Positions 10,624 through 25,395 of a stretch of DNA of 32,000 bases are shown here, in pieces. A program made the position numbers and the translations under genes. Source of the stretch: Pyrodictium occultum. GTDB lineage: Archaea; Thermoproteota; Thermoprotei_A; Sulfolobales; Pyrodictiaceae. The DNA is taken from the NCBI RefSeq assembly GCF_001462395.1, contig NZ_LNTB01000001.1, forward strand, positions 1,320,001 to 1,352,000. The letters are read 5' to 3'. Numbering within the stretch: the first letter of the stretch is position 1; every line of letters starts with the position of its first letter. Under the pieces are notes generated by a model, which did no database searches, was not told the origin of the DNA, and was given only the letters and a program-made list of their open reading frames with translations.

Positions 10624-11868
10624 CTATGGCCTGCAGTGTGGAGGGTCTGTGGTGTAGTCGAGCACTATGCTGATGCAGTGAAGCTTGTCGTTCCTGTCTA
10701 CTGTGGCCTCTATTCTTGCCTGGAGCACTGCCGCGGGGTAGGTTCGGTCTCCGAGTCTTAGCTCGACGCAGTTGGATTTGTCTATGGGTATGGTTGCCGC
10801 TGGTTTCTGCGGTGTTAGGGTGGCTTTGTGCTCGTGGGCTGGGCTGTAGAGGTCTATTCTCAGGCTGCGGATTAGTGAGCACGGGTGCATGGATTTGAGG
10901 GCTATTGTCAGGGCGTCTATGGGTGCGCCCCCGCTGCAGCCGCAGCTGCGGTCGAGTATGATGTAGAGCGTGTAGTTCGCTACTAGCCTGCATATCCCCT
11001 CCTCCTCGCCGTGGTCTGCGGCTTTGCAGCTGCAGTCGAGGCGGATGGGGATGCTTGTTCTCCCGTGGAGTACCCAGGCGCGGGGGCAGTGACGGCCCTC
11101 TTCCTCTTCCTCCTTGGAGGTGTTGGTGGCGCTGGTGGTGCTCGTGCCGCTCCTCGTCCCCGTAGTGCTGCTCCATGTGCTAGTTGTGGCTCTGGTTGTT
11201 GTGATGGTTGTCGTGTTGCCCTGGGGGGCTGTGGTGCCTGTGGCTGTCGGGGCGGCTGGCGCTGTGGCCTGGCCCGTGGTGGTTGGCTGGGTGGTCTGCG
11301 TTATGGTGGCTCTGGGGGTTGCTGTGGGTGTGAAGTATATTGTGCCCGTCTCCTCGTCGGATATGGAGACCAGGACTGGCAGCTGCACCGCTGCCGTGCA
11401 GTTTCTCGGCATGTAGTATATCCTTGCCCCGAGGACCGCGTAGCGGCTGTCGCCGCTGCCGGCCCAGCTATCCGCGTCGAGCACTATGGCTGCTGAGGGC
11501 TTGTCGAGGGACAGTGTTGCGAGCAGCTCGTTGTTAAGCGTGTTGTAGACCTCGATGTGGAGGTAGCTGAGCCAGGCCCTCAGCAGGCTGGCGTCCGCTA
11601 GGCTGACCACCAGCTTGGCCAGCCGCACCCCCGGGGCCGGCTCTACGCGGATCCACCTGCCGACGTCGAGGCTCTCGACGCTGCAGGCCCCTCCCGTCCT
11701 GAGCACGGGCGTCTCTATGATGGAGACCTCCACCGGCTTGTGGACGGCCCTGGCCCCGCCCACGGCGTAGAAGTCGTTCAGGGGGCTCAGCGTGGTGGCG
11801 AACACCGCCGCCAGCGCAAGGGCTAGCGCGGATAGTATCAGCGCCAGGGCGAGGCTGGCACGCCTCAT
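10624..11868 (-). CDS. Secreted/surface protein: signal or anchor + beta-rich domain + Thr-rich stalk + Cys-rich repeat of the same domain (paralog of 20283-21551)
   Basis: ATG start. The hydrophobic N-terminus is MRRASLALALILSALALALAAVFA, followed by TTLSPLNDFYAVGGA. A 70-aa Thr-rich tract and KEEEEE follow, then a C-terminal domain with 11 Cys. There are several N-x-S/T sequons. Confidence 0.7.
   Translation of the reverse strand: MRRASLALALILSALALALAAVFATTLSPLNDFYAVGGARAVHKPVEVSIIETPVLRTGGACSVESLDVGRWIRVEPAPGVRLAKLVVSLADASLLRAWLSYLHIEVYNTLNNELLATLSLDKPSAAIVLDADSWAGSGDSRYAVLGARIYYMPRNCTAAVQLPVLVSISDEETGTIYFTPTATPRATITQTTQPTTTGQATAPAAPTATGTTAPQGNTTTITTTRATTSTWSSTTGTRSGTSTTSATNTSKEEEEEGRHCPRAWVLHGRTSIPIRLDCSCKAADHGEEEGICRLVANYTLYIILDRSCGCSGGAPIDALTIALKSMHPCSLIRSLRIDLYSPAHEHKATLTPQKPAATIPIDKSNCVELRLGDRTYPAAVLQARIEATVDRNDKLHCISIVLDYTTDPPHCRP
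11116..11331 (-). repeat. Low-complexity Thr/Ala/Pro-coding tract (ACN-rich) inside the 414-aa gene
   Basis: Encodes TPTATPRATITQTTQPTTTGQATAPAAPTATGTTAPQGNTTTITTTRATTSTWSSTTGTRSGTSTTSATNTS. On the + strand it reads as GGT/GTG-rich repeats that create the shadow ORFs 11011-11496 and 11114-11416. Confidence 0.7.
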
Positions 11869-12040: not shown

Positions 12041-13189
12041 GTGTACTCTATGAGGCTGAGGCTTCCCCGGCGCGCGAGGGTGAGGAGGGAGCTGAGGCTA
12101 GCGGACGTCTGGCTCATGGAGCGCTGGCCGGTGGAGACCCTCGACGCCTCCAAGATGACTGACCCACCGTTCGCCGACATAGGCGGCGCCGGCTCGGTTC
12201 TGGAGAGCCTCGTGGACCAGGCGGTGTCGGGCAGGGGCGGGATATACGTAGTAGTCGGCGGCCCCGGCTCGGGCAAGACGACGCTGCTCAAGACGCTTCA
12301 CAGCCGGCTCCGCCGGGGAGGCGTGTACTCGGTCTACGTCAACGCCTCGGGCCGCAGCCTCGACGACCTGGTGGCCGGCCTCTGCACGATACTCGGCTGC
12401 ACCGAGCCGAGCCTCGACTCGCTGAGGGAAAAGCTCCGGGAGAGGGCCGCCGAGAAGGGGGCTATGGCTCTGCTAGTAGACGATATCGACAGGATGGCGG
12501 GCGGGAACATCGACGACGTGATCAAGCTGCTCACAACCCTCACCTCGGCCCAGCGGGAGCTGGGCCGCAGCCTGCTCATAGTGTTCAGCATGGCCCGTGA
12601 CACCCTGGCGAGGCTCAGCCTCGACCCGCTCACCAGGGGGCTGATAAAATCCTACATGGAGGTTATAGACATGGACGAGCACCTGGTGAAATCCCCCAGC
12701 GACCTGGCGAGGCTTATCTACGCCCACTTCCAGCGGGTACGGCCCCGCAGCCTAAGCAAGAAGGCGGCCGCCACCCTGAGCCGCTACCCCCTCCACCCCA
12801 TCAGGGACCAGAGCGTCATAAACGTGCTCTACGACGTGATAGGCGATGACACCCCCCGCGTGTACCTAGAGAAGCTCGACGAGCTCCTAAGGATAGCGGC
12901 CAGCTCGCGCTCACGCCTGGTAAGCGTTTCACACGCGAACGTGCTCGCCAGAAGGATCCTCCAGGCCCGTCGCGGGGCGATACCCCTAACCCAGATCCGA
13001 GCCGTCATCCTACGCCGCTACGTCAACGGCCTCCTGGCCGGCGGGCTCGTAGTACTGGGCACGATGGCCGTAACACTCTCAATGATAAACCTCGTGCCAC
13101 CAGGCCTCAAGCTGCCGTACATAGTCGTGGGCCTGGTGCTGATGCTGGTAGGCGTGCTCGTGCATATGAAATCCGTATCGGCCCCCTAA
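12041..13189 (+). CDS. Membrane-tethered P-loop NTPase (AAA_22/ORC-like ATPase core with two C-terminal transmembrane helices)
   Basis: Walker A YVVVGGPGSGKTTLLKTL and Walker B ALLVDDIDRM. The C-terminal hydrophobic helices are LLAGGLVVLGTMAVTLSMINLV and YIVVGLVLMLVGVLVHM. There is a GTG at 12041 and an ATG at 12050. Confidence 0.75.
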   Translation: MYSMRLRLPRRARVRRELRLADVWLMERWPVETLDASKMTDPPFADIGGAGSVLESLVDQAVSGRGGIYVVVGGPGSGKTTLLKTLHSRLRRGGVYSVYVNASGRSLDDLVAGLCTILGCTEPSLDSLREKLRERAAEKGAMALLVDDIDRMAGGNIDDVIKLLTTLTSAQRELGRSLLIVFSMARDTLARLSLDPLTRGLIKSYMEVIDMDEHLVKSPSDLARLIYAHFQRVRPRSLSKKAAATLSRYPLHPIRDQSVINVLYDVIGDDTPRVYLEKLDELLRIAASSRSRLVSVSHANVLARRILQARRGAIPLTQIRAVILRRYVNGLLAGGLVVLGTMAVTLSMINLVPPGLKLPYIVVGLVLMLVGVLVHMKSVSAP

Positions 13190-13216: not shown

Positions 13217-13810
13217 GTGGGGGATGGTATGAGCAACGACTACCTAGACCTCACTGTGCCGGAGGAGGGCTCACTGACTGGAGCCCTACTAGCCCTGGCC
13301 GTGCTCGGCGTCATTGTAGCGGTTGGGCTAAGCCTGCGGGGCACTCTGCCGCGCTTCGCGGTGATCCAGACGACGAGCATGGTTCCAACCCTCGTGCCCG
13401 GCGACGTTGTTATGATAACCCATGTAAACCCTAATGACATACACATAGGTGACATAATAGCCTTCAACCTGGTGGCATATGATATCGATAGCCAGGGGAG
13501 GCCCGTAGACGTAAGACGCACGGTAATAGTGGTCCACCGCGTGATAGGCAAGAAGGTTATCAACGGGCACCTCTACTTCCGCACCAAAGGCGACAACAAC
13601 CCCACGCCAGACCCCTGGTATGTGCTCCCTCAGGGCGTGCTGGGCAAGGCCGAGAAGGTGGCCAGCCTGGGCAGCTTCGGCCTGGTGCTAACCAACCCGG
13701 TAGGGAGGATATTCGTGATAGTCATGATGCTCTCGTCCCTGGTGCTCCTGCTAAGCACTGTGAGGAGCTATAGTAAAGGTATACGTGAGGACCTCGAGAG
13801 CTACATGTAG
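13217..13810 (+). CDS. Type I signal peptidase, Sec11/SipW (Ser-His) type
   Basis: S26 boxes: TTSMVPTLVPGD (catalytic Ser), VVHRVIG (His), TKGDNNPTPD. It has N-terminal and C-terminal TM segments. It lies 27 nt downstream of the ATPase on the same strand. Confidence 0.85.
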   Translation: MGDGMSNDYLDLTVPEEGSLTGALLALAVLGVIVAVGLSLRGTLPRFAVIQTTSMVPTLVPGDVVMITHVNPNDIHIGDIIAFNLVAYDIDSQGRPVDVRRTVIVVHRVIGKKVINGHLYFRTKGDNNPTPDPWYVLPQGVLGKAEKVASLGSFGLVLTNPVGRIFVIVMMLSSLVLLLSTVRSYSKGIREDLESYM

Positions 13811-14417: not shown

Positions 14418-14447
14418 GCTCCTCCAGGCCCCCGGGTATCAACGATG

Positions 14448-14455: not shown

Positions 14456-14485
14456 CGGGCTGACGCCCATAATTCTCTAGCGGAG

Positions 14486-14650: not shown

Positions 14651-14698
14651 GGAAGCCCCTGGGCTTCCCTCTTTTCCGGCCGGCAGCGCCGGAGGGCT

Positions 14699-15268: not shown

Positions 15269-15358
15269 GGGCTATGCACCCTCCAAGGGAGCGGTGGGCC
15301 TCCCCCATGTGGCCCGCTAGTGGCGGCCCCTGGGTTTAGGGTTTAGATGGCTACCGCC

Positions 15359-18300
15359 TCATGGCCCCCGGCTGGCCCTCCTGGCCCCGCGGCTGCGCCT
15401 GAGCCTCAGCTTGCCCATGGCGGCGAGCAGCGAGACCACCGCCACGATGCTGACCGCAAGCACTATGAGGGCCCGCTGGCGGCGGGTCAGCGTCACCCCT
15501 CCCGCGGCGGGTGCGGGCGTGGCGTGGGCGGCCGTGGTGGGTGTCGCGGCGCCTCCCGCCGGCGTTGCTGTGGTGGGTGTCGTAGGCCTCTGGGACGCCG
15601 TGGTGGGACCGGCGCGGCTCGGGCCGAGGGGTATCTGCCCGCTTGTGCTTGCCAGTGTGAATGACTCGCTCGCCCCATCCGGCACCGCTCTAAGCACGAC
15701 GCTGTATGGTATGCTGCTGCCGCTCCTCAACGCCACCTTCACCCTCATGGACAGGGTCTCGCCTGGGCGCAGCAGGCCGCTCCGCAGGGAGGCGGTCCCC
15801 GCCGTGTGGTTGCCCGGCTCGGCTTCGAGCACTGTCACACTATCTGGGAACGATATGCTGAGTATGGCGTTCTTGAAGTCTATGGAGTCTAGGTTGGCCA
15901 CGCTGACCTCCAGCACTGCGAGGTTCCTATAGCTCTCCAGCTTCTTCACCTCAAGCTTCACGTAGGGCACCTTGACCCTGATGGGCACTGTTGCCAGCGC
16001 CTGGCCGCCCAGCCGGAGCACGAGGTACAGCGTGTCCTCGCTCCCCGGCGCGGCCACCGGGGACACCTGGACCCCGGCCCACAGGGTGGTGAACTCCCCA
16101 GGCTCTATATCCACGCGGGTTGCCGGGAGGAAGAGCCTGGCTATGGAGCTCTCGTTAACCGGCTCCAGCGCCGCGCCCGCTATCCTGACGCCCGAGGAAA
16201 CCACTATCTTGACGTCAACCTTGCCGCCGGGCGGGGCGGCGATGTAGCTGGGCGTCACGTCGACCCCCACGCTGCGGCGCAGGAGCTCTATCACCGGCAC
16301 CCTGGCAATCTGGTACCTCTTGAGCAGGTAGCTGCCCGTGTCATCGTAGATCTCCAGGACCACGCTCAGAACGTCCAGGGGCTTGAGGCTCACCGTTCCC
16401 AGGCTCATGCTCACGTCCAGCGTGCGGTGGCTCCTAGCGGGCACCGTGACTACCTGGGCGTAGTCGTAGATGGCGCAGGCGCTGACGTTCACACAGTTCC
16501 CCTGGCCCCTGACCACCAGGAACCTGGCCAGGAACACAGAGTCGCGCTCGCTGGGGTTGTAGAAGGATACGTGGGCCACCAGCCCCCTCCTAGCTATGTC
16601 GACGCTCGCGCTCTCGAGCTGCGGCTCCACAACCACCGACCGTATCCTTATGCTCGTAGTGGCCGTGGCTACAGCCCTGCCGCTCGAGTCCAGCACCTCT
16701 ATGCTGGCCGTGTAGGTGCCCGGGTAGGCTGTAGGGGGGACTGGGATGCTCACTATGAAGCTCGTGTCGCCGCCCAGGGGGACCAGCTCCTCCGCCGAGT
16801 CGGCCTCCCCAAGGCCCTCTATGGATATGTGGACCCTCAGCTTGGCCGCCGTGTTCCCCTCGTTGGCCACCTTCACCTCTACCCGGAAGCTCTTACCCAC
16901 AACGGGCAGGTCTAGGACACGCACCTCCTCCACGCTCGCGGAGACCACGGGCTTGACCTGGAGCAGGTTGTGGAGCCTCCAGGAGGCGTAGGGCTTGCCC
17001 GCTATGTAGAGCGTCGCGCTGGCGTCGTAGCTGCCGGCGGCCGCGTCCCTGGGGACCTGGATGGGGACCTCCACTACGTTCGCGCCGGGGAAGAGGGGGG
17101 CCTTGGCGCTGTAGCTCTTCCCGAACATGTTTATGACGAGCGTCGCGTCGACCGAGCCCTCGCCCTCCAGCCGCAGCCGGAGGGTGGCTATCGCCTGGCC
17201 GCCTGGGTCCACGCTCCCGGGGGACGCCGTGTAGCCCGTGAGGGATACCCGGTAGGACACCACCTCTACCGCCGCGCCGGCCTTCGCGGGGGCGTAGAGG
17301 CTGTCCCCCTCGAACCTGGCCACTACATCGTGCCTGCCCAGCCCGAGCCATGAGGTGTCAAACTCCACCACCGCCACGCCGCTGCGGTCGGTGCGGCCCG
17401 TGCCGACGAGCCTCCCATCCACGTAGAAGCTGACAGAGCGCCCCACGATGGGCCTGCCCGAGAGCCCGTCGAGGAGCCGAGCCTCTAGGCGGGCCAGGCT
17501 GCCGCGGGTGACGATTATGCTCTGGGCCTCTACCCTGGCGGGCCTCCTGAGCACCTCTATAGCCGCCGTCTTCGAGCCCCTCAGCCCCGTGTTGTCGACT
17601 ACGGTGAGCGTGACGTTGTAGACGCCGGGCTTCTCGAAGACGTGCGTGACTATCGCGCCGCTCGCCACCGTGCCGTCGCCGAAGTCCCAGTGGTACTCCG
17701 TGATGTTGCCGTCGGGGTCGTAGGAGAGGAGCCCGTAGAAGGTGACGTTGGAGCCCCAGTAGACGCGTCTAGGCGTGAACCAGAAGCCCGCCACGGGGGG
17801 CCTGCCCTTCACGCACCAGGTGGGCCGGGTGGTGAGCCAGGGCCGGTAGTCGACCGTCGCCTTCTCGCCGAGCATTATCCTGCTCCCCTTGCCGCCCGTG
17901 TTCCCGGGGGCTGCGGGGCCGGAGGGGTCGCCCCACCAGTTGTGCCCCGCGTAGACGTAGCCGCTGTCCACCCGGAGCCCGTAGAGCCCCTGGCCCAGGG
18001 GGCAGCTGTAGCTCACCACCGCCGTGGCGTCTTCAACGCTCTTGATGTATATGCCGCCGTTGATCCTGGAGTATAGGACAAGCAGCCTCGCCTTATTGCC
18101 CACGCCGCCCTTCTCGCCGTCCACGGTCAGGCTGTCGAGCTGGCACCTCTCAAGCCTCATAACCGTCGACTTCCCGTAGAGGCCCCAGTCCTCGCGTATC
18201 CAGTTGTCCGCTATGCTCTCCCCCCTCACAGCCACGGAGCCTAGGACGGAGTTCACCGCCGTGAAGCTCGAGTAGTCAAGCGCCCGGCCGGAGGAGGTCC

Positions 18301-19249
18301 CGTTGTAGAGGCCGTAGCCGTGGAGGACGACGCCCTCCAGCGAGGAGTCGAGCACGCTGAACTGGGAGGAGAGGAGCCCGTCAGGGCCCTCCACGATGAG
18401 CTTGCCGAGCCTGACGCGCTCCAGGGTTACGGTGCTGCGGAACACCGCCGCCCCCTCCCCGGCGTAGCTCCTGTCAACCACTATGCTCATGTTGGAGAAG
18501 CTGGAGTCCGACACCGTTATGTTGGAGTCGTACACGGCGTACATGATGGCTGGTATGAGCTTGTAGCTGGTAACAGTGACAGTCTTATTGCCGGCGGTCA
18601 CGTTGTAGGTAACGGGGACCCGCAGCTGCAGCCCCGTCGCGCGCGCGTGTATCGTGAAGGCGCCGGTGGCGTTGACGCGGCTCAGCTCTATCCGGGACCC
18701 GTAGACCACTGTAGACTCGTTACCCAGGCCGATAGACTCCAGCTCAAGGTCCCCCTGTATGGTCACGTTGTCCAGCAGGAGGCTTGAGTTGTAGAGGCTC
18801 CTGTATGCTGACCGGAAGGAGATGCCTCCCTGCACCACGGAGTCTATGAACGTCGCGTTGGAGCTTGTGAACTCTGCGAACTCAAGCCCGTTTCTCACCA
18901 CGACGTGCTTGAAGACGAGCACAGAGCTAACAACCACGAGGGTGCCGCGGCCGACGAGGATGACGGGCTCGCTCCGCGTGCCCTCAGCGAGTATAACCCC
19001 CCGCTCCACAGTGACGGTGACGCCGGGCGCGAATATGATTGTGACACCGCTCTCTATCTTGACCTGCGCCATTATGCGTATATCCCTGGTTACCACGTAG
19101 GGGCTCCCGTCGCGGGTCAGAACAGTGTTAACCGTTATATCGCGGTCTATCGCCGTGGGCCCGCTCGCCCCCGCCGGGAGGCCTGCGAGCAGCGGCGCCG
19201 CGAGCGCTAGTAGGAGGAGAATGAGCATCAACAGCCTTCCGGGCTTCAA
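15359..19249 (-). CDS. Large surface glycoprotein: signal peptide, right-handed beta-helix region, PKD domain, multiple Ig-like/CARDB-like domains, Thr/Pro stalk, C-terminal TM anchor
   Basis: 1296 aa. Signal peptide MKPGRLLMLILLLLALAAPLLAGLPAGASG. Beta-helix repeats end in GHNWWGDPSGP. The PKD signature is YDPDGNITEYHWDFGDGT...GVYNVTLTVVDNTG (about 17552-17800). The C-terminus is TTPTTATPAGGAATPTTAAHATPAPAA + LIVLAVSIVAVVSLLAAM + RLRRSRGARR. There are many N-x-S/T sequons. Confidence 0.85.
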   Translation of the reverse strand: MKPGRLLMLILLLLALAAPLLAGLPAGASGPTAIDRDITVNTVLTRDGSPYVVTRDIRIMAQVKIESGVTIIFAPGVTVTVERGVILAEGTRSEPVILVGRGTLVVVSSVLVFKHVVVRNGLEFAEFTSSNATFIDSVVQGGISFRSAYRSLYNSSLLLDNVTIQGDLELESIGLGNESTVVYGSRIELSRVNATGAFTIHARATGLQLRVPVTYNVTAGNKTVTVTSYKLIPAIMYAVYDSNITVSDSSFSNMSIVVDRSYAGEGAAVFRSTVTLERVRLGKLIVEGPDGLLSSQFSVLDSSLEGVVLHGYGLYNGTSSGRALDYSSFTAVNSVLGSVAVRGESIADNWIREDWGLYGKSTVMRLERCQLDSLTVDGEKGGVGNKARLLVLYSRINGGIYIKSVEDATAVVSYSCPLGQGLYGLRVDSGYVYAGHNWWGDPSGPAAPGNTGGKGSRIMLGEKATVDYRPWLTTRPTWCVKGRPPVAGFWFTPRRVYWGSNVTFYGLLSYDPDGNITEYHWDFGDGTVASGAIVTHVFEKPGVYNVTLTVVDNTGLRGSKTAAIEVLRRPARVEAQSIIVTRGSLARLEARLLDGLSGRPIVGRSVSFYVDGRLVGTGRTDRSGVAVVEFDTSWLGLGRHDVVARFEGDSLYAPAKAGAAVEVVSYRVSLTGYTASPGSVDPGGQAIATLRLRLEGEGSVDATLVINMFGKSYSAKAPLFPGANVVEVPIQVPRDAAAGSYDASATLYIAGKPYASWRLHNLLQVKPVVSASVEEVRVLDLPVVGKSFRVEVKVANEGNTAAKLRVHISIEGLGEADSAEELVPLGGDTSFIVSIPVPPTAYPGTYTASIEVLDSSGRAVATATTSIRIRSVVVEPQLESASVDIARRGLVAHVSFYNPSERDSVFLARFLVVRGQGNCVNVSACAIYDYAQVVTVPARSHRTLDVSMSLGTVSLKPLDVLSVVLEIYDDTGSYLLKRYQIARVPVIELLRRSVGVDVTPSYIAAPPGGKVDVKIVVSSGVRIAGAALEPVNESSIARLFLPATRVDIEPGEFTTLWAGVQVSPVAAPGSEDTLYLVLRLGGQALATVPIRVKVPYVKLEVKKLESYRNLAVLEVSVANLDSIDFKNAILSISFPDSVTVLEAEPGNHTAGTASLRSGLLRPGETLSMRVKVALRSGSSIPYSVVLRAVPDGASESFTLASTSGQIPLGPSRAGPTTASQRPTTPTTATPAGGAATPTTAAHATPAPAAGGVTLTRRQRALIVLAVSIVAVVSLLAAMGKLRLRRSRGARRASRGP

Positions 19250-19282
19250 GCTTGGCCCCGGCTGAGCCCCAGCATGCTAGTA

Positions 19283-19290
19283 CTTAAAAA
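19283..19290 (-). promoter_or_regulatory. TATA-like box (TTTTTAAG on the - strand) for the 1296-aa gene
   Basis: The only AT patch between 19250 and 19330, centred about 38 nt upstream of the start codon at 19249. Confidence 0.35.
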
Positions 19291-19334
19291 CCGTAGTCCA
19301 GCCTCCAGGGAGGGTAATCAGCCTAGCCCTACGT

Positions 19335-19345
19335 AACATAATAGG
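19335..19345 (+). promoter_or_regulatory. TATA-like box (AACATAATAGG) for the PP2C-like gene
   Basis: An AT patch about 42 nt upstream of the GTG at 19382 in the divergent intergenic region. Confidence 0.3.
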
Positions 19346-19381
19346 GTCTTTGGGTGCTACCCGGGGGAGGGGCCGCGGAGG

Positions 19382-20227
19382 GTGGCGTGGCGCGCCTGGG
19401 TGGCAACCGCGAACACGGTCCACTACGAGGACGACGCCAGCCTGTGGCTCCACGGGGGCTACGGCGCCATAGCCGTGGCGGACGGTGTCTCCACGAGCCG
19501 CGGCGGGGGAGCCTCCCTCCTAGCAGCCTGGGGGTTCACAGCGTTCTGCAGGGCCGTCCTGCCGGGGTGGCGGGGGAGCATAGCCGGCGCGGCGCGCCGC
19601 TGCCTAGAGCTCCTCGACGAAGCGGCTCGGGAGGCGTCCCCACGCGACGCCGACACCGCGGCGGAGGCTAAGCGCCTCTACTACAGGGGCTGCGGGGCCC
19701 CCTGCACCAGGCCGATGAGCCCATGGGAGCCGGCTAGGCTCGAGGCCCAGGCCCCGCAGGAGGGGGGCGGCGGGCAGGCGCCCTCCACGACCCTTCTAGC
19801 GGCCCTCCTGGGCCCCGGGGGCCAGCTGGCACTGGTGCTGGCGGGCGACGGCGTGGTTGTGGCTACGACGGGGAGCAAGGAGTCCACCTGGCTCCTATGG
19901 GGCGCGCTGCCACAGTTCTACGAGGGGAGCCGGCTAGCCCGCTTCATCGAGGTCGGCAGGGGGCTCCAGGGGGAGCCGGTGGTCCTGGAGACCAGGCTCC
20001 CAGGCGACACCCTGCTGGCGCTCGCGACGGACGGGGTGGATCCCGCGGCGCTGGCGGAGGAGCTTGTGGAGCTGGCCCGAAGAGGGGTGCCGGAGGACGC
20101 GGCGGAGGGGAACCCCGCCTCCCTGCTGCTCAGCCGCATCCAGCAGCGGGCCGGGGGGCTGGAGGATGATGCGACGATAGCGCTGGCGTATTGGGCCAGC
20201 CAGGCCCCCGGGCGGCTAGGGCGCTGA
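19382..20227 (+). CDS. PP2C/SpoIIE-like (PPM family) protein phosphatase domain protein
   Basis: Motif order is typical of PPM phosphatases: AIAVADGVSTSRGGGAS, LVLAGDGVVV, LLALATDGVDP, LEDDATIALAYW. 281 aa, with host-like high GC. Confidence 0.6.
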   Translation: MAWRAWVATANTVHYEDDASLWLHGGYGAIAVADGVSTSRGGGASLLAAWGFTAFCRAVLPGWRGSIAGAARRCLELLDEAAREASPRDADTAAEAKRLYYRGCGAPCTRPMSPWEPARLEAQAPQEGGGGQAPSTTLLAALLGPGGQLALVLAGDGVVVATTGSKESTWLLWGALPQFYEGSRLARFIEVGRGLQGEPVVLETRLPGDTLLALATDGVDPAALAEELVELARRGVPEDAAEGNPASLLLSRIQQRAGGLEDDATIALAYWASQAPGRLGR

Positions 20228-20282
20228 GAGGCGGGGATGCAGAGGGAAAAAGGTGTGAGGTGTGCCCTGGGGCCGCCGCCCC

Positions 20283-21551
20283 CTAGCCCGTCTCAACCAC
20301 CCTGGCGTTGATCACCAGGGGCACGCTGTCGAAGAGCACGCCCTCCCTAGCCTCGTAGTACACCCGGGCGCCCAGGACCGCCGCCCGGCCTCCATCGTAG
20401 AGCCAGGAGGAGTTGTCCAGCACGAGCACAGCCTCCGGCACGGACCAGCCGCTGGAGGAGTCAAAGCCGAGCACAACCCTGGCGCCGGCATGCCCGCCCT
20501 GGCCGGCCCGAGCAGCCTGGACGGGCACCGCCTGGGCGGAGACTGTGGCGCCCTCTTTAACGTCTATCCAGTTGTACCTGCCCCGCTGTGGTACAGTAAT
20601 ATTGGCGTTGCCGATAGTGACGCTGCTCTTATTGACATAGGTGTAGTAGCCGCGCCACCATATGCTGAAGAGCCACCGGCCGCTGGCGTCGTAGAAGTCT
20701 AGGGAGAGGGTCCAGTTCAATGCAGAGTAGACGATGTCAAACCCTCCCTCGACGCTGCCATTGAGCAGCCAGACCCCGTAGTCCCTAGAGTCGAGTACAA
20801 CCCTCTCAAACCGCCATGGGCCAAGTACGCCGGCCTGCATGTACACCGACAACCTAGCCCCCTGCGGCGGCTCGCGGTCAAGCACGTACGCGAAGAGCTT
20901 ACCCCTCTTCAGCGAGTCCACAATAATGCCTGGAGCGGTGCTGTTCTCCGGCGCCAGGCTTACCTCCCCGCCGGCAGTGGAGTTGCCGTACGAGAACCTC
21001 ACTACAGCGTAGGAGGCATTGCGCCAGAGCCTGTTTGCGGCAGCGTTTGCATTCTTCACGCCCGCCTTGGCCAGCGCGTTGCTCAGCAGCCATAGGGCTT
21101 CAGTCCTGTCCACCAGCGCCCCCCACCAGCAGTCGAACATGTAGAGGGGGGCGTCCACCAGCGTAACGTTGTAGCTCATAGCGGGGGGCGGGGCGGCGCT
21201 CCCGGCGGCGGGCTCCCCCACCTCTACGACCACGGCCAGGTACCTGAAGAGCCTCTCCAGGTACTCTATGTTCTCCAGGCTCAGCTCCAGCTTCACATAG
21301 TCGACATCACTGTGCCTTGTTATTTTGAGCCAGGTGGTCACCTCCACTACTCCCTGGGAGCCCGCTGCGGGGCTTATGGTTATGCTGCCGAGCTGCTGGA
21401 GGCTTATGGGCTCGTTGGGCGCCTGCGCGCCGCCCACCGCGTGGAAGCTGCTCAGCGGGCTCTGGGTGGTGGCGAAGCCTGCTAGCAGGGCGAGGGCGGC
21501 AGCCGAGGCGGCGAGGGCGGCCAGGGCGAGGGCTGCTGAGCGGTGGTTCAA
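20283..21551 (-). CDS. Secreted protein, paralog of 10624-11868 with a large central insertion
   Basis: The hydrophobic N-terminus AALALAALAASAAALALLAGFA is followed by TTQSPLSSFHAVGGAQA. The C-terminus is LVLDNSSWLYDGGRAAVLGARVYYEA. Both segments align with the 414-aa protein. There are several N-x-S/T sequons and a TTG start. Confidence 0.75.
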   Translation of the reverse strand: MNHRSAALALAALAASAAALALLAGFATTQSPLSSFHAVGGAQAPNEPISLQQLGSITISPAAGSQGVVEVTTWLKITRHSDVDYVKLELSLENIEYLERLFRYLAVVVEVGEPAAGSAAPPPAMSYNVTLVDAPLYMFDCWWGALVDRTEALWLLSNALAKAGVKNANAAANRLWRNASYAVVRFSYGNSTAGGEVSLAPENSTAPGIIVDSLKRGKLFAYVLDREPPQGARLSVYMQAGVLGPWRFERVVLDSRDYGVWLLNGSVEGGFDIVYSALNWTLSLDFYDASGRWLFSIWWRGYYTYVNKSSVTIGNANITVPQRGRYNWIDVKEGATVSAQAVPVQAARAGQGGHAGARVVLGFDSSSGWSVPEAVLVLDNSSWLYDGGRAAVLGARVYYEAREGVLFDSVPLVINARVVETG

Positions 21552-21712
21552 GGCTCTAGGGCACCCGGGCTGCCCTAGCCATGAATGTTAAGCTGCAAAG
21601 CCGGGTATAGGCTGGGCGAGGCGGCATTAAATAAGTGCAGTGTAGCATTATGTGCTGTGCCTAGCGGGCTGCTGGCCTGTCTTGGGCTGTGCGGCCCCCG
21701 GGGTTGGGGAGG

Positions 21713-24583
21713 CTAGGGCTCTAGGCTTAGCACCAGCTCCTCGCCTTCTATTCGCCACTTCTTCCCGTCTCTAGGCGGGCTGGAGGCTAGCTCGATGCTG
21801 CCGACCCTCACCTCCCGTGCTATCAGCTCCCGGTGCCTCTCCACCGCCTCCCGCAGCTTCCCCGTGGCGTAGACTAGGAGCCTCCTAGCGGTGTGGTCTA
21901 CGGGGAGGTCCAGCTCCTTCCTGAGCACCTGGGCGCGGCGTATGACCTCCCTGGCGAGGCCCTCCAGCATAGTCTCCTCGTCCAGCTGCATGTCCACGTA
22001 CACTGTCATGCTGCTGGTCTCTATTTTCTCCGCTCTGGGGGCCCAGCCGGGCTCCGAATCCACCACCTCCACTGCCTTTATGTTGGCGAACCTGGCTAGC
22101 ACGTCAGCTGCCTCCCGCAGCCTCTCCACTGGGAGGCTGGAGCCGGGCTTGGCTGCTATAGCGGCGCGGCGGAGGGGCCAGCGCCTCTTCAGCCTCCTCT
22201 CGCTCCTCAGTGCGAGCACCTTCTCCGCCGCCTCTAGCGCCTCCTCGACGGCGAGGTAGCTCTCCTCGTCGAGGAGCTTCTCGTCGACGCTCGGCCACTC
22301 TAGCATGTGGACGCTCTCGGGCGCCCCGGGCTCGTACTTCTTTACGAAGGCCTGGTAGAGGTACTCGGCTATGAAGGGCGTGAAGGGCGCCATGGCGGCT
22401 ATGGTCCTCCGGAGCACGTAGTAGAGGGTGGCGTATGCCGCCTCCTTGCTCTCTGTGGCCTCCTCCTCCCAGACCCTCGGCCTGACCAGGGGGATGTAGC
22501 GGTGGCTCAGCTGCTCCACCACCAGGTCGACCAGCGTCTGGAGCGCCTGGTGCATGTTGTCGTTCTCGACCGCCTCCTCCACCCTCTTCAGCGCCTGGCT
22601 TAGCCTGTAGATTATCCAGCGGTCCTCTGCCTGGAGCCTCCCGGGCTCCGGGGGCCCGGGGCTCCACTTGTCGAGCTCCATGTAGGTGTCGGCGAACTTC
22701 ACGGTGTTCCATAGTATGTTGAGGTAGCCCCGGTACCTCTCCACCTCGTCGGGGTCGAAGTTCACGCTGTCCCAGGGCGCGCGGCTCAGGAGAAGCATCC
22801 TCATAGGGTCGGCGCCGTGCTTCTCCATCCACTCCAGCGCCCACACCACGTTGCCCTTGCTCTTGCTCATCTTCTTGCCCTCCTTGTCCAGCACGTGGCC
22901 CTGGAGCAGCACCGAGCGGTAGGGGGCCTTGCCGTGCCACACCACGCCGGTCACGAGCAGTGTGTAGAACCAGCCCCTGGTCTGGTCAGCGGCCTCGGTT
23001 ATCCAGGTGTAGGGGTAGAGCTGGTCCCATAGCCTGAGCCAGCCGTACTGCTTCAGCGCCGCGGTGTGGGCCACGCCGCTGTCCATCCAGACGTCGACCA
23101 CGAACGGCTCCCTCCTCATCACGCCGCCGCACTTGGGGCAGCGGAGCTCCACACGGTCTATGTAGGGCCGGTGGAGGTCGTCGGGCACGCTGGAGGGGTC
23201 CACGGCTAGCCTCCTGAGCTCCTCGAGGCTCCCCACGACCACAGTGTGGCCGCAGCTGGTGCAGCGCCACACGGGGAGGGGGGTGCCCCAGTACCGCTCG
23301 CGGCTTATACACCAGTCGCGGGCGTTCTCAACCCAGTCGCTCATCCTCCTGGCCGCCCAGCTGGGGGCCCAGCGCATCGAGCGTACCCCGTCGACCATCT
23401 TCCTCCGGATCTCGTCCGTTATCCTTATGAACCACTGGCGGGACGCGTAGTAGAAGAGCCTGGTGCCGCAGCGCCAGCAGAACGGGTACTCGTGTCTCAC
23501 CGTGCCCGCGTGGACTAGGAGCCCCTTGCCCCGGAGTACCTCTATCACCTTCTCCCCGGCGTCCTCGAACCACATGCCCTTGAAGGCGCCGGACTCGGGG
23601 CCGAAGTAGCCGTCCTCGCGGAGCGGGGTGTAGGCCTCTATCCCCCTCTTGCTGCACTCCTCAAAGTCCTCGGGGCCGTGGGCGGGGGCCAGGTGCACTA
23701 CCCCGGTGCCATCCTCCATGGTCACCCAGTTGGCGGCGAGCACCGTGTGGTAGGGGGGCTCGTGGCGCTGGTGGTAGGGTACCTCCTCCGCCAGGGGGTG
23801 CCGGTACCTCATCCCCGCGAGGGTGGCGCCCTTCACCCTCTCGACAACCATGTACTTCTCCAGCCCCACCTCCCTGGCGAAGGCCTCCAGCCTCTTCTCA
23901 GCCACCACCCATATCTCATCGCCGACTGAGATGAACACGTACCACTCGTCCGGGTGGACGGCCGCCGCCTCGTTGGCTATTATCGTCCACGGCGTGGTGG
24001 TCCAGGCTACAAGGTAGGTGTTGTCGAGCCCCTCCAGGGGGAGCTTGAAGTAGACGCTGGGGTCATCCACCTCCTGGTAGCCCTGCGCCACCTCGTGGCT
24101 GCTGAGCGCTGTGCCGCAGCGGGGGCACCGGGGGACCACGCGGCGGCCCTCGTAGAGGAGCCCCTTCTCATGCGCCTTCTTGATGAACTCCCAGATAGCC
24201 TCTATGTAGCGGGGGTGCCTCGTCTGGTAGGCGTGGCCATAGTCCAGCCACAGCCCGAGCCTCTTGCTCGCCCTCTCCCAGTGCTCGATGTAGTAGTCTA
24301 CCAGCCGCCTGCACTCCTCGATGAAGCGGTCGACGCCGTATCGCTCGATATCCCTCTTGCTCCTCATGCCAAGCTTCTTCTCCGCCTCAAGCTCCACGGG
24401 GAGCCCCTGGGTGTCCCAGCCGGCCTGGTCCCAGACTCGGTAGCCCCTCATCCTGGCGTAGCGCAGCTTCACGTCCTTCAGGGTCCTGCCCCTGGCGTGG
24501 CCCACGTGCATGAACCCGTTGGCGGTCGGCGGGCCCTCAAGGAACGCGAATAGAGGCGCATTGGGCCTCTCGTCCCACGTCAT
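21713..24583 (-). CDS. ileS: Isoleucine--tRNA ligase (class Ia)
   Basis: HIGH-region PPTANGFMHVGHARG, GWDTQGLPVE, editing-domain WTTTPWTIIANEA, KMSKS loop KKMSKSKGNVV, and Zn-type CxxC pairs. The conserved N-terminal sequence continues upstream of the listed ATG (see findings). Confidence 0.9.
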   Translation of the reverse strand: MTWDERPNAPLFAFLEGPPTANGFMHVGHARGRTLKDVKLRYARMRGYRVWDQAGWDTQGLPVELEAEKKLGMRSKRDIERYGVDRFIEECRRLVDYYIEHWERASKRLGLWLDYGHAYQTRHPRYIEAIWEFIKKAHEKGLLYEGRRVVPRCPRCGTALSSHEVAQGYQEVDDPSVYFKLPLEGLDNTYLVAWTTTPWTIIANEAAAVHPDEWYVFISVGDEIWVVAEKRLEAFAREVGLEKYMVVERVKGATLAGMRYRHPLAEEVPYHQRHEPPYHTVLAANWVTMEDGTGVVHLAPAHGPEDFEECSKRGIEAYTPLREDGYFGPESGAFKGMWFEDAGEKVIEVLRGKGLLVHAGTVRHEYPFCWRCGTRLFYYASRQWFIRITDEIRRKMVDGVRSMRWAPSWAARRMSDWVENARDWCISRERYWGTPLPVWRCTSCGHTVVVGSLEELRRLAVDPSSVPDDLHRPYIDRVELRCPKCGGVMRREPFVVDVWMDSGVAHTAALKQYGWLRLWDQLYPYTWITEAADQTRGWFYTLLVTGVVWHGKAPYRSVLLQGHVLDKEGKKMSKSKGNVVWALEWMEKHGADPMRMLLLSRAPWDSVNFDPDEVERYRGYLNILWNTVKFADTYMELDKWSPGPPEPGRLQAEDRWIIYRLSQALKRVEEAVENDNMHQALQTLVDLVVEQLSHRYIPLVRPRVWEEEATESKEAAYATLYYVLRRTIAAMAPFTPFIAEYLYQAFVKKYEPGAPESVHMLEWPSVDEKLLDEESYLAVEEALEAAEKVLALRSERRLKRRWPLRRAAIAAKPGSSLPVERLREAADVLARFANIKAVEVVDSEPGWAPRAEKIETSSMTVYVDMQLDEETMLEGLAREVIRRAQVLRKELDLPVDHTARRLLVYATGKLREAVERHRELIAREVRVGSIELASSPPRDGKKWRIEGEELVLSLEP

Positions 24584-24687: not shown

Positions 24688-25395
24688 ATGGGCATCACCG
24701 CTGGCCATCGTGGCAGGGCCGGCTCCCTTAAACCCTCCGCGGCCGCCCCTCTGCACGTTTTTAGTACACGCCACGGCTCTACGCCTAGGGGCCTGCCTCC
24801 CATGCTAGGCCAGCGGCTGCTACGGGTCTTCTACCGCCGGGGGCCGCTCTTCCTACACCACTCGGCGGCCAAGGCCCTGGCGGAGGCTGGGCCCCGCCTC
24901 GTGGCTGATATAGGCTCGGCCAACGCCCTCCTAGCCCGGGCGCTAGAGGACCATGGCTACCTGCCGAGCTACTACCTCGCGCTCGACGTCGACAGCCTCC
25001 TCCTCGCGGCAGCCCCCTCCAGGGCCTGGATCGAGAGGATCCAGGCCTCCGCCGAGAGGCTCCCCCTCCGAGGCCGCGCGGTCGACATGGCTGTGCTGCA
25101 TGACGCCCTTCACCACTTCCACCGGCCCTGGGAGGCTCTAGCGGAGGCGGCGCGGGCGGCAGAGTGCATCCTAATAGACGATATCGACGCCGGGAGGCTC
25201 TCCGGCAAGCTGGTGGAGCTAGCCGAGAGGCTCCTCGGCTTCCCCGCTAGGTTCGCGAGGCCCAGCGAGGTGGCGGAGAAGCTGCAGGAGAACATGATGA
25301 GGGTGGTAATGATGGAGGCCGACCAGGGGCTTCCGACCTACAGGATGCTGGCCTGCCGCGCGGCCGCCCCGGGGAGCAGCCGGGCCCGCCCCTAG
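24688..25395 (+). CDS. Class I SAM-dependent methyltransferase-like protein (weak motifs)
   Basis: Motif I-like LVADIGSANALL, post-I LALDVD, and AERLPLRGRAVDMAVLHDALHHF. The more likely start is ATG 24802 (MLGQRLL...), because 24688-24801 overlaps the ileS 5' region. Confidence 0.5.
   Translation: MGITAGHRGRAGSLKPSAAAPLHVFSTRHGSTPRGLPPMLGQRLLRVFYRRGPLFLHHSAAKALAEAGPRLVADIGSANALLARALEDHGYLPSYYLALDVDSLLLAAAPSRAWIERIQASAERLPLRGRAVDMAVLHDALHHFHRPWEALAEAARAAECILIDDIDAGRLSGKLVELAERLLGFPARFARPSEVAEKLQENMMRVVMMEADQGLPTYRMLACRAAAPGSSRARP

What the first reader, a model, noticed from the sequence alone, without database searches (positions are those of the whole stretch)
20283..21551. Two secreted paralogs 8.4 kb apart share a conserved motif right after the hydrophobic N-terminus and a C-terminal AVLGAR[IV]YY strand
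Directly visible alignments:
- FATTLSPLNDFYAVGGARA (414-aa protein) against FATTQSPLSSFHAVGGAQA (422-aa protein). In both cases the motif follows an Ala/Leu-rich hydrophobic segment.
- WIRV..VRLAKLVVSLAD..LSYLHIEVY against WLKI..VDYVKLELSLEN..FRYLAVVVEV.
- VLDADSWAGSGDSRYAVLGARIYY against VLDNSSWLYDGGRAAVLGARVYY.

The 422-aa protein looks like the 414-aa N-domain split by an insertion of about 230 aa.

A conserved block placed exactly at the signal-peptide boundary recalls cognate-peptidase recognition motifs, such as the SipW-dependent signal class. It may instead be an N-terminal donor strand. I did not recognise the family. The two genes bracket the giant surface protein and the peptidase module.
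Basis: seen in the sequence. Interest (0 to 1): 0.6.

Follow-up and report, generated by a model that had tools for sequence, protein, structure and literature searches.

The report
Cannula-subunit paralogs of Pyrodictium occultum
The two secreted proteins are divergent copies of the building block of "cannulae", the protein nanotubes that link Pyrodictium cells, and the shared motif after the signal peptide is the strand each subunit inserts into its neighbour; the family was described in 2025, so the finding is real but largely explained.

Summary
The window is Pyrodictium occultum. The 422-aa ORF (CF15_07065) and the 414-aa ORF (CF15_07030) share two significant blocks (BLASTP E 8e-9 and 3e-7), with about 246 aa inserted between them in the 422-aa protein.

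Both proteins belong to the CanA/CanX cannula-subunit family. This is a small Pyrodictiaceae-restricted branch of the TasA superfamily, with cryo-EM structures published in 2025.
- PDB sequence hits: CanX E 1e-32 and 4e-21.
- Fold match of the 422-aa core to CanX: TM-score 0.72.

"[FY]A" is the end of the signal peptide. [quoted passage not shown] "AVLGAR[IV]YY" is the penultimate strand of the jelly roll.

The 422-aa protein carries an orphan, sequon-rich domain in a loop where CanA carries one of its extended loops, which project from the tube's outer surface. The 414-aa protein is a Can domain, a Thr-rich linker and a second, Cys-rich Can-like domain. Its P. abyssi orthologue lies directly upstream of canX.

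One point goes beyond the literature. A 2-TM signal peptidase I and a membrane AAA_22 ATPase sit beside Can genes in three genomes, and the ATPase also in a fourth (cut contig). Whether that peptidase is dedicated or housekeeping is open.

Verdict: new members of a known kind, of modest interest.

The parts
20283..21551 (-). Gene for the 422-aa Can-family paralog with an inserted domain (P. occultum CF15_07065; TTG start)
   Evidence: 100% identical to P0001. PDB sequence hits are CanX 9h8b at E 1e-32, CanA 7uii at E 1e-18 and Hyper2 9bab at E 6e-12. Foldseek of the AF2 model gives CanX TM-score 0.72 (target-normalised) at E 6e-6.
21471..21551 (-). Signal peptide, aa 1-27, ending ...LLAGFA. 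Cleavage is inferred after Ala27.
   Evidence: Aligns residue for residue with the CanX precursor ...LLAGFA|TTQSPL. The CanX ex vivo model lacks the first 25 residues: 174 deposited against 149 modelled. Cleavage of this particular protein is an inference.
21411..21470 (-). Donor strand A of the mature protein, aa 28-47: TTQSPLSSFHAVGGAQAPNE
   Evidence: The groove-facing residues F-A-G-A-A, the central Gly and the Pro are identical to CanA and CanX. The roles of these positions are taken from PMC12518558.
21222..21410 (-). N-terminal half of the Can jelly-roll core, aa 48-110, including the PAAGSQG loop (equivalent to CanA Ca loop 34-40)
   Evidence: AF2 pLDDT is 81-92 over this stretch. Alignment A10.
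20484..21221 (-). Inserted orphan domain, aa 111-356 (246 aa). It holds 8 of the protein's 9 N-glycosylation sequons and the conserved motif SA.N[YFW]TL.L.FYD..G.WLF.I.W.
   Evidence: Shared by 8 long family members. No PDB, Pfam or Can-profile relationship was found. AF2 confidence is low, 33-66. Sequon count.
20286..20483 (-). C-terminal half of the Can core, aa 357-422. It contains strand AVLGARVYY (aa 391-399, nt 20355-20381), the Ca-loop motif EAREGVLFDSVPL (aa 400-412) and the last strand ...VINARVVETG.
   Evidence: BLASTP segment 2. HMMER alignment to the C-termini of CanX, CanA and Hyper2. pLDDT 83-91.
10624..11868 (-). Gene for the 414-aa tandem Can paralog (CF15_07030)
   Evidence: 100% identical to P0004. 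P. abyssi orthologue P0005 is 44% identical over 95% of the length. PDB hits are CanX at E 4e-21 and CanA at E 5e-10 over aa 1-168.
11737..11868 (-). Signal peptide (aa 1-24, ...AAVFA) plus donor strand (aa 25-44, TTLSPLNDFYAVGGARAVHK)
11344..11736 (-). Can jelly-roll domain, aa 45-175, ending ETG. The Ca-loop motifs are replaced, and Cys62 and Cys157 are invariant among the three orthologues.
   Evidence: Alignments A1 and A10.
11098..11343 (-). Thr/Ser-rich linker, aa 176-257 (49% Thr+Ser)
   Evidence: Conserved in kind in P0005 and P0006.
10627..11097 (-). Cys-rich C-terminal domain, aa 258-414. It is a probable second, diverged Can-like jelly roll that lacks the canonical donor strand.
   Evidence: hhalign against the short Can family gives probability 87.7%, E 3.4e-6, over 67 columns. 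The AF2 model is all-beta with pLDDT 70.8. The best Foldseek hits are CanA monomers 9hdi, 7uii and 9dlo, with TM-scores (query/target) of 0.48/0.46, 0.40/0.37 and 0.45/0.47 and E 2-5e-3.
12041..13189 (+). AAA_22 P-loop ATPase with two C-terminal hydrophobic (predicted membrane) segments. It is divergent from the 414-aa gene across a 172-bp gap.
   Evidence: Pfam AAA_22 at E 3.8e-14. Orthologues lie next to Can genes in L002 (71% identity), L003 (38%) and L005 (43%).
13217..13810 (+). Signal peptidase I of the archaeal S26/Sec11/SipW type, 197 aa. I read two TM segments from the sequence, plus the motifs TSMVPTL, VHRV and KGDNN.
   Evidence: TIGR02228 at 83.6 bits against a cutoff of 51.85. Orthologues in L002 (71%) and L003 (52%) are also above the cutoff.
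15359..19249 (-). 1296-aa surface protein with a signal peptide, PKD/Ig-like domains, a Thr/Pro-rich stalk and a C-terminal TM anchor. It is a syntenic member of the cluster.
   Evidence: 67% identical to the P. abyssi orthologue in the same position.
19382..20227 (+). PP2C_2-like protein, 281 aa. It is convergent with the 422-aa gene and is a syntenic cluster member.
   Evidence: 73% identical to the P. abyssi orthologue, which lies next to the CanA-like 230-aa gene P0034.

Best explanation
Both genes encode paralogs of the cannula subunit (CanA/CanX family, a divergent branch of the TasA superfamily) of Pyrodictium occultum.

**Proposed mechanism**
- Each precursor is exported by Sec.
- Signal peptidase I cuts after ...G/V-F-A. 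This frees an N-terminus TT(Q/L)SPL..F(H/Y)AVGGA(Q/R)A.
- That segment is donor strand A. One face of it (F, A, G, A, A) docks into the hydrophobic groove between the first core strand and the last strand of a neighbouring subunit. This completes the neighbour's jelly roll (donor-strand complementation).
- The shared C-terminal block is the penultimate strand (AVLGAR[IV]YY). It is followed by the loop that binds calcium in CanA and then by the final groove-forming strand.

**The 422-aa protein**
- It keeps both calcium-loop motifs.
- It carries a 246-aa, heavily sequon-bearing orphan domain in an inter-strand loop where CanA has an outward-projecting loop.
- It most likely acts as a decorated minor subunit that co-assembles with the short major subunit and displays the extra domain on the outside of the tube.

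**The 414-aa protein**
- It keeps the donor strand.
- It has lost the acidic calcium-loop residues and gained a Cys in each loop.
- It carries a second Can-like domain on a long Thr-rich tether.
- It most likely acts as a specialised end, nucleator or adaptor subunit, comparable to TapA for TasA.

**Shown and inferred**
- Shown here: homology, fold of the core, motif conservation and gene order.
- Taken from the solved homologues: cleavage site and strand function.
- Inferred: co-assembly, and the roles of the extra domains.
For: **Identity of the genes**
- Both ORFs are exact matches to P. occultum proteins.

**Family membership**
- phmmer against PDB sequences hits CanX, CanA and Hyper2 with both halves of the 422-aa protein and with aa 1-168 of the 414-aa protein.
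- An AF2 model of the 422-aa protein is confident over its core (pLDDT 81-92).
- By Foldseek that model matches CanX, CanA and Hyper2. TM-scores normalised to the target are 0.72, 0.56 and 0.67, at probability 1.00.
- An exhaustive phmmer search of 1.84 billion representative proteins finds only 26 relatives. This is consistent with the reported restriction of the family to Pyrodictiaceae.

**Donor strand**
- The published structures and mutants show three things (PMC12518558):
  - mature residues ~1-20 are strand A;
  - there is an aromatic residue at pocket P1, small residues at P2-P5 and an essential central Gly;
  - Hyper2 G13A and deletion of the first 10 residues of CanA both impair or abolish polymerisation.
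- Both window proteins have exactly F-A-G-A-A at these positions.
- The 422-aa donor strand differs by one residue from that of the short P. occultum Can protein CF15_06965.

**Calcium loops**
- PAAGSQG and YYEAREGVLFDS are kept in the 422-aa protein.
- The 414-aa protein and its orthologues replace them with GAC.. and YY.PR.C...

**Mosaic conservation between the two long P. occultum paralogs**
- Signal peptide: 100% identical.
- Cores: 73-76% identical.
- Insertion: 27% identical.
- 8 of the 9 sequons lie in the insertion.

**Position of the 414-aa orthologue**
- The P. abyssi orthologue sits directly upstream of canX, the gene for the major ex vivo subunit.
Against: - No experiment shows that either protein is made, cleaved or built into cannulae.
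- In P. abyssi the authors searched ex vivo cannulae for projecting extra domains and found none. Any such subunits are therefore rare or used elsewhere.
- The inserted domain could not be modelled with confidence (pLDDT 33-66). Its fold and its orientation relative to the tube are inferred only from the alignment position.
- The 414-aa protein lacks the calcium-loop residues that the published model makes necessary for opening the groove. It may therefore not accept a donor strand in the same way, or it may not join the lattice at all.
- The assignment of its C-domain as Can-like rests on moderate scores (hhalign 87.7%; best Foldseek TM-score ~0.46-0.48).
Confidence: 0.85

Rival explanations
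1. The conserved block is mainly a recognition element for a dedicated SipW-like signal peptidase encoded in the same cluster, as in tapA-sipW-tasA. On this reading its conservation reflects peptidase specificity rather than subunit-subunit contacts.
For: - A TIGR02228 signal peptidase I lies 1.35 kb from the 414-aa gene.
- Its orthologues lie next to Can genes in P. abyssi. In a more distant MAG the order S26-AAA_22-Can is co-directional, with gaps of 73 and 128 bp.
- Can proteins are reported to belong to the TasA superfamily, whose members are often linked to a dedicated peptidase.
Against: - In the solved filaments these residues are the donor strand, and their alternating conservation fits the groove pockets.
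- Mature recombinant CanA and Hyper2 assemble without any peptidase.
- A G13A change in the strand impairs assembly of an already mature protein.
- Neither protein hits any signal-class model in NCBIfam.
- The peptidase is a 197-aa enzyme of the ordinary type (I read two TM segments from the sequence), whereas the dedicated AbpX-linked enzymes are described as having ten TM helices.
- Family members with an N-terminal extension (P0017, P0023) keep the strand far from the cleavage site.
Confidence: 0.1
2. The two proteins are Can-fold homologues that no longer take part in cannulae. They would be stand-alone surface or matrix proteins, for example adhesins or S-layer-associated proteins, or they would form separate filaments of their own.
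For: - No projecting domains were seen on ex vivo P. abyssi cannulae.
- The 414-aa lineage has lost the calcium-loop residues.
- The cluster also encodes a large membrane-anchored PKD protein that could be their partner.
- P. abyssi carries 15 Can-like genes but only one was identified as the major subunit in the ex vivo tubes.
Against: - The groove-facing donor residues are identical to those of the major subunits.
- The 422-aa donor strand is nearly identical to that of the short P. occultum paralog.
- The cores are held at 73-76% identity between long paralogs while the insertion drifts to 27%. This is what lattice constraints would give.
- The 414-aa orthologue lies directly upstream of canX, in what the authors take to be the canX operon.
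Confidence: 0.25
3. The similarity is an artefact: chance resemblance of low-complexity, high-GC translated sequence, or non-coding ORFs.
For: The window is 61-74% G+C and is full of long spurious ORFs on both strands.
Against: - Both ORFs match annotated proteins.
- They have homologues in other genomes with conserved architecture.
- They hit solved structures at E 1e-32 and 4e-21.
- The core folds with high confidence.
Confidence: 0.01

Closest known systems
Cannula subunits CanX, CanA (Pyrodictium abyssi) and Hyper2 (Hyperthermus MAG); PDB 9h8b, 7uii, 9bab; Sleutel et al., Nat Commun 2025 (PMC12518558)
   Same: - Same family by sequence and fold.
- Same Sec/SPase I signal ending in G-F-A.
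- Same donor strand with F-A-G-A-A facing the groove.
- Same C-terminal strands.
- The 422-aa protein keeps both calcium-loop motifs.
- Same narrow taxonomic range.
   Different: - The 422-aa protein has a 246-aa orphan domain where CanX has a short loop and CanA a slightly longer one.
- The 414-aa protein has lost the acidic calcium-loop residues, gained a Cys pair, and carries a Thr-rich tether and a second Can-like domain.
- The paper mentions paralogs 'with substantial domain insertions' and five P. occultum homologues. It does not characterise them.
tapA-sipW-tasA of Bacillus subtilis, and the archaeal AbpX/AbpA bundling-pilus loci (TasA superfamily)
   Same: - Donor-strand-complemented jelly-roll fibres.
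- A minor, larger paralog encoded next to the major subunit.
- A signal peptidase I gene in the locus.
   Different: - No Pfam Peptidase_M73 or TasA hit for either protein. The relationship is reported only at the HHsearch level, below 20% identity.
- The peptidase here is of the ordinary 2-TM type, not the 10-TM AbpX-linked type. It is paired with an AAA_22 ATPase that those loci are not reported to have.
- The product is a wide tube held together by calcium sites, not a thin fibre.
Chaperone-usher pilins (FimA, PapA) and two-domain tip adhesins (FimH)
   Same: - N-terminal donor strand with alternating small hydrophobic residues and a register-setting Gly.
- Specialised multi-domain subunits at filament ends.
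   Different: - No periplasmic chaperone or usher genes.
- Assembly of the solved homologues is triggered by calcium and needs no chaperone.
- The fold is a jelly roll rather than an incomplete Ig fold.
- In the 414-aa protein the extra domain is C-terminal to the pilin-like domain, the reverse of FimH.
Sulfolobus thread subunit Saci_0406 and its putative cap Saci_0405 (PMC9715654)
   Same: An archaeal Sec/SPase I-dependent donor-strand filament with a neighbouring paralog proposed to act as a cap or nucleator.
   Different: - A different family within the superfamily.
- Threads use isopeptide bonds and have no calcium sites.
- Saci_0405 lacks an acceptor groove and a Sec signal, whereas the 414-aa protein has a signal and a full Can domain.
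Flagellin-type architecture (conserved termini, variable inserted surface domain). This is an analogy only.
   Same: The polymerisation-competent ends are strongly conserved between paralogs (73-100%), while the inserted, glycosylated middle diverges (27%).
   Different: Unrelated fold, secretion route and assembly mechanism.

Membership tests
Can (cannula subunit) family | Significant sequence similarity to CanA, CanX and Hyper2 across the jelly-roll core | tested here: met
   The 422-aa protein hits at E 1e-32, 1e-18 and 6e-12, in two collinear stretches. The 414-aa protein hits at E 4e-21, 5e-10 and 6e-4 over aa 1-168.
Can (cannula subunit) family | Jelly-roll fold that superposes on solved Can protomers | tested here: met
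   For the 422-aa protein the AF2 core has pLDDT 81-92. Foldseek gives CanX TM-score 0.72 and Hyper2 0.67 (both target-normalised), at probability 1.00. The N-domain of the 414-aa protein was not modelled; it is assigned by sequence only.
Can (cannula subunit) family | Sec signal peptide cut by signal peptidase I just before TTxSPL | tested here: inconclusive
   The signal region aligns exactly with CanX, whose ex vivo model lacks the first 25 residues. Small residues sit at -3 and -1 (G/V, A). No cleavage predictor or experiment was available for these two proteins.
Can (cannula subunit) family | N-terminal donor strand with an aromatic residue at P1, small residues at P2-P5, a central Gly and a preceding Pro | tested here: met
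   Both proteins have F-A-G-A-A, the central Gly and SPL. The pattern holds across 25 distinct homologues.
Can (cannula subunit) family | Calcium-binding loop motifs (equivalents of CanA residues 34-40 and 161-173) | tested here: met
   The 422-aa protein keeps PAAGSQG and YYEAREGVLFDSVPL. This was tested at motif level only. The individual liganding residues are not listed in the text I could read.
Can (cannula subunit) family | The same calcium-loop motifs, in the 414-aa protein | tested here: not met
   The loops read ..TGGACSVE.. and YYMPRNCTAAVQLPV. The acidic residues are absent and Cys62 and Cys157 are invariant in the three orthologues. The protein is a family member by homology but departs from the canonical assembly switch.
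Can (cannula subunit) family | Polymerises into ~25-nm tubes with Ca2+ | not testable with these tools
   Needs recombinant protein or analysis of native cannulae.
TasA/SipW-type system (dedicated peptidase plus cognate signal class) | Match to TasA/camelysin (Pfam Peptidase_M73) | tested here: not met
   No Pfam family for either protein at E <= 0.01. The published link is at the HHsearch level only.
TasA/SipW-type system (dedicated peptidase plus cognate signal class) | SipW-cognate signal peptide class | tested here: not met
   NCBIfam returned no signal-class model for either protein at E <= 0.1. That the library contains the SipW-cognate model (TIGR04088) is from my memory and was not checked.
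TasA/SipW-type system (dedicated peptidase plus cognate signal class) | Dedicated signal peptidase I encoded in the locus | tested here: inconclusive
   A TIGR02228 peptidase is present and syntenic in three genomes. It is of the ordinary 2-TM type, and I could not count the paralogs in each genome.
Chaperone-usher pili | Periplasmic chaperone and outer-membrane usher genes | tested here: not met
   Neither is found among the Pfam and NCBIfam results for the window's genes. The organism is an archaeon without an outer membrane.

The most novel reading that the evidence does not exclude
Cannula loci may encode a conserved, so far unreported biogenesis module, together with specialised minor subunits. 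The proposed module is a membrane-anchored AAA_22 ATPase paired with a 2-TM signal peptidase I. The proposed minor subunits are these:
- A tandem Can protein whose calcium switch is replaced by a disulfide. It would act as nucleator, anchor or cap, analogous to TapA.
- Insertion-bearing subunits that decorate the tube surface.

If so, cannula assembly in vivo would not be the machinery-free, purely calcium-driven process currently proposed.
Probability: 0.2. Interest if true: 0.6.

Novelty: new member of a known kind. Interest (0 to 1): 0.33.

Why it matters
- **Annotation.** Two "hypothetical proteins" of P. occultum, a species in which cannulae have been seen, can now be given a function.
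- **The specialised architectures.** These are an orphan glycosylated insertion, and a tandem protein with Cys-substituted calcium loops. Both are concrete candidates for minor subunits of cannulae: decoration, nucleation, anchoring or capping. The published structural work asked about such subunits but could not detect them.
- **The conserved neighbours.** Can genes lie next to a signal peptidase I and a membrane ATPase across genomes of 38-70% G+C. This qualifies the published statement that cannula loci contain no dedicated protease or accessory factor. It also gives a testable lead on how these nanotubes are started and attached in vivo.
- **Materials interest.** Cannula proteins are being pursued as thermostable materials. 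The naturally tolerated insertion site is a possible guide for engineering surface display on such tubes.

Tried and rejected
- **Family libraries.** Pfam and NCBIfam gave nothing for either protein. The family has no model in these libraries.
- **Word-indexed homologue searches.** These returned few relatives (3, 3 and 11). The exhaustive HMMER search was needed to find more.
- **Genome-contig scan.** It returned only one Hyperthermus MAG contig. P. occultum contigs could not be fetched for CF15_06945 or CF15_06965. I therefore could not read the rest of the P. occultum Can region or count signal peptidase paralogs.
- **The inserted domain.**
  - AF2 with an 11-row alignment gave low confidence.
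  - A profile against PDB sequences found nothing, and Pfam found nothing.
  - hhalign against the Can profile and against the 414-aa C-domain gave 0.1% and 0.5%.
  - I rejected the idea that the insertion is a nested Can duplication.
- **The 135-aa ORF beside the peptidase (13861-14268 -).** I tested whether it is an AbpX/TasA-like subunit. It has no PDB or Pfam relationship.
- **The AAA_22 ATPase.** It has no informative structural relative beyond the P-loop. Its match to the PEP-CTERM-associated ATPase model is far below the cutoff (24.7 against 324.5 bits).
- **Context of the medium-insertion paralog P0003.** The contig is short and shows no module genes.
- **Mobile island.** I considered whether the lower-GC block at 10-22 kb is a mobile island. 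The window has no tRNA, and the block is syntenic with P. abyssi including the flanking hydantoinase genes. Vertical inheritance is more likely.
Full report
**What is in the sequence**

The window is G+C-rich (61-74%) and encodes a reverse gyrase (25392-29696 -), so it comes from a hyperthermophile. Exact protein matches identify it as Pyrodictium occultum:
- The 422-aa ORF at 20283-21551 (-) is CF15_07065.
- The 414-aa ORF at 10624-11868 (-) is CF15_07030.

BLASTP of the two proteins gives two collinear significant segments:
- aa 26-109 against aa 23-107, E 8e-9.
- aa 372-422 against aa 124-175, E 3e-7.

The description "N-domain split by an insertion" is correct. Using motif anchors I place the insertion at aa 111-356, which is 246 aa.

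The genes between the two paralogs are these:

| Coordinates | Strand | Product |
|---|---|---|
| 12041-13189 | + | AAA_22 ATPase with two C-terminal hydrophobic segments |
| 13217-13810 | + | archaeal-type signal peptidase I (TIGR02228, 83.6 bits, cutoff 51.85) |
| 13861-14268 | - | 135-aa membrane protein |
| 14699-15268 | - | DUF2204 nucleotidyltransferase |
| 15359-19249 | - | 1296-aa PKD-domain protein with a C-terminal anchor |
| 19382-20227 | + | PP2C_2-like protein |

**What the proteins are**

Neither protein matches any Pfam or NCBIfam model. Searched against the sequences of solved structures, both hit the cannula subunits:

| PDB entry | 422-aa protein | 414-aa protein |
|---|---|---|
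| CanX (9h8b) | E 1e-32 | E 4e-21 |
| CanA (7uii) | E 1e-18 | E 5e-10 |
| Hyper2 (9bab) | E 6e-12 | E 6e-4 |

In the 422-aa protein the N- and C-terminal halves match the two halves of the ~150-residue subunit.

An AF2 model of the mature 422-aa protein is confident over the two core segments (pLDDT 81-92) and poor over the insertion (33-66). Foldseek places the model on CanX (TM-score 0.72 normalised to the target), Hyper2 (0.67) and CanA (0.56), all at probability 1.00.

An exhaustive HMMER search of 1.84 billion representative proteins finds only 26 relatives. This agrees with the published statement that CanX homologues detectable by HMMER are confined to Pyrodictiaceae.

**What the shared motifs do**

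This part rests on the published structures (Sleutel et al., Nat Commun 2025, PMC12518558).
- Cannulae polymerise by donor-strand complementation. The N-terminal strand A of one subunit lies in a groove between strands B and K of the axially adjacent subunit.
- An aromatic residue sits in pocket P1, small residues in P2-P5, and there is a conserved central Gly.
- Hyper2 G13A, and deletion of the first ten residues of CanA, impair or abolish polymerisation.
- The deposited CanX sequence has 174 residues and the ex vivo model has 149. This fits removal of the 25-residue signal peptide ...LLAGFA.

- [FY]-A is the last two residues of the signal peptide.
- TTxSPL..F.AVGGA.A is the donor strand.

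Both window proteins present exactly F-A-G-A-A on the groove-facing side, as CanA and CanX do. Across 25 distinct family N-termini the groove-facing positions are almost invariant and the alternate positions vary. This is the signature of a strand with one buried face.

The 422-aa donor strand differs by a single residue from that of the short P. occultum paralog CF15_06965.

It precedes the loop equivalent to CanA 161-173, one of the two loops that bind calcium and gate the groove, and then the final strand.

**How the two paralogs differ from the canonical subunit**

*The 422-aa protein*
- It retains both calcium-loop motifs, PAAGSQG and YYEAREGVLFDS.
- Its insertion falls in the inter-strand loop where CanA has one of its two extended loops. 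The paper says these loops project from the outer surface. An outward orientation of the insertion is inferred from this.
- The insertion is shared by eight long family members and has its own conserved motif.
- It holds 8 of the protein's 9 N-glycosylation sequons.
- It has no detectable relative in PDB sequences, Pfam or the Can profile.
- Against the other long P. occultum paralog, CF15_06945, identity is 100% in the signal peptide, 76% and 73% in the two core halves, and 27% in the insertion. This is what one expects if the ends are constrained by lattice contacts and the middle is exposed.

*The 414-aa protein*
- It has a signal peptide, a donor strand and a Can domain ending in ETG, then a 49% Thr/Ser linker and a Cys-rich C-domain.
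- The C-domain is probably a second, diverged Can-like jelly roll:
  - hhalign against the short Can family gives 87.7%, E 3.4e-6.
  - The best Foldseek hits for its AF2 model (pLDDT 70.8) are CanA monomers, at probability 1.00 and best TM-scores of about 0.46-0.48.
- In its N-domain both calcium loops have lost their acidic motif. Each has gained a Cys that is invariant in the three orthologues. A disulfide replacing the calcium switch is my inference and is not tested.

**Genomic context**

The P. abyssi AV2 locus L002 is syntenic with the window:

| Gene | Identity to window orthologue |
|---|---|
| PP2C-like | 73% |
| PKD protein | 67% |
| DUF2204 | 81% |
| small membrane protein | 40% |
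| signal peptidase I | 71% |
| AAA_22 ATPase | 71% |
| tandem Can | 44% |

- Immediately downstream of the tandem Can gene in P. abyssi lies canX itself, followed by a long insertion-type Can gene that is split over three frames in that assembly.
- The 414-aa protein is therefore the orthologue of the gene directly upstream of canX, in what the authors take to be the canX operon.
- In P. abyssi the position of the 422-aa gene, beside the PP2C-like gene, is held by a 230-aa CanA-like protein.

In a more distant MAG (L003, 61% G+C) the order is signal peptidase I (52% identity), AAA_22 (38%), long Can. All three are co-directional with gaps of 73 and 128 bp, and more Can genes follow.

On a 38% G+C metagenome contig (L005), a short Can gene is divergently adjacent to the AAA_22 gene, at which point the contig ends.

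The published paper states that no dedicated signal proteases or chaperones were identified in cannula loci, so this linkage appears not to have been described.

There is a caveat. The peptidase is the ordinary type (two TM segments by my reading of the sequence), whereas the AbpX-dedicated enzymes are reported to have ten TM helices. It may therefore be the cell's general signal peptidase. I could not count the paralogs per genome.

**Verdict**

- The first interpretation (cognate-peptidase motif) does not explain the block, although a peptidase gene is indeed conserved nearby.
- The proteins are new, uncharacterised members of a family published in 2025. That paper already notes paralogs with large insertions and five P. 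occultum homologues.
- What this analysis adds is the dissection of the two architectures, the orthology to the canX-flanking gene, the Cys-for-calcium substitution, and the conserved AAA_22/signal peptidase neighbours.
- I rate the novelty as "new member of a known kind" and the interest as modest (0.33).
- There is a ~20% chance that the locus encodes a genuine, unreported assembly or anchoring module.

Noticed in passing
window 12041-13810; L002 7970-9771; L003 7335-9138; L005 1512-1994: An AAA_22 P-loop ATPase with two C-terminal hydrophobic segments lies directly beside Can genes in four genomes spanning 38-70% G+C. In the three loci that extend far enough, a 2-TM signal peptidase I lies beside it; the L005 contig ends inside the ATPase gene. 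The published cannula paper reports no dedicated protease or accessory genes in these loci.
   Followed up: partly
window 11344-11736 (aa 62 and 157 of the 414-aa protein); P0005, P0006: In the tandem Can lineage, both loops that bind calcium in CanA have lost their acidic motif. Each carries a Cys that is invariant among the three orthologues, which suggests a disulfide in place of the calcium switch.
   Followed up: partly
L002 12027-13100 (P. abyssi AV2, downstream of canX): The long, insertion-type Can gene next to canX is broken into three reading frames. Its last piece runs on into a PaREP1-like ORF. This could be a pseudogene or an assembly error. An intact 389-aa paralog (P0008, PABY_07030) exists elsewhere in P. 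abyssi.
   Followed up: partly
L007 8053-10531 (P. abyssi AV2): The orphan short Can gene P0028 lies directly downstream of a 169-aa Exosortase_EpsH-family gene and a family-2 glycosyltransferase.
   Followed up: no
window 204-2266 (-): Hydantoinase A is split into two ORFs that overlap by 7 nt. One is the N-terminal domain (210 aa) and the other holds the catalytic and C-terminal domains (478 aa). The P. abyssi gene is a single 682-aa ORF. This could be a frameshift, a sequencing error or a genuinely split gene.
   Followed up: no
window ~10000-22000: The Can/peptidase/PKD cluster has lower G+C (0.61-0.68) than the flanks at 1-10 kb (0.68-0.74, mostly about 0.72). The window contains no tRNA, and the block is syntenic with P. 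abyssi, so it is probably not a recent island.
   Followed up: partly
P0017, P0023, P0025 (P. abyssi and relatives): Some Can-family members carry long acidic or Cys-rich N-terminal extensions between the signal peptide and the donor strand. In these proteins the strand is not at the mature N-terminus.
   Followed up: no
window 2924-5756 (-) and 25392-29696 (-): A HerA-like helicase (DUF87) sits next to a weak NurA-like ORF, and there is a full-length reverse gyrase. These are ordinary genes for a hyperthermophilic archaeon.
   Followed up: no
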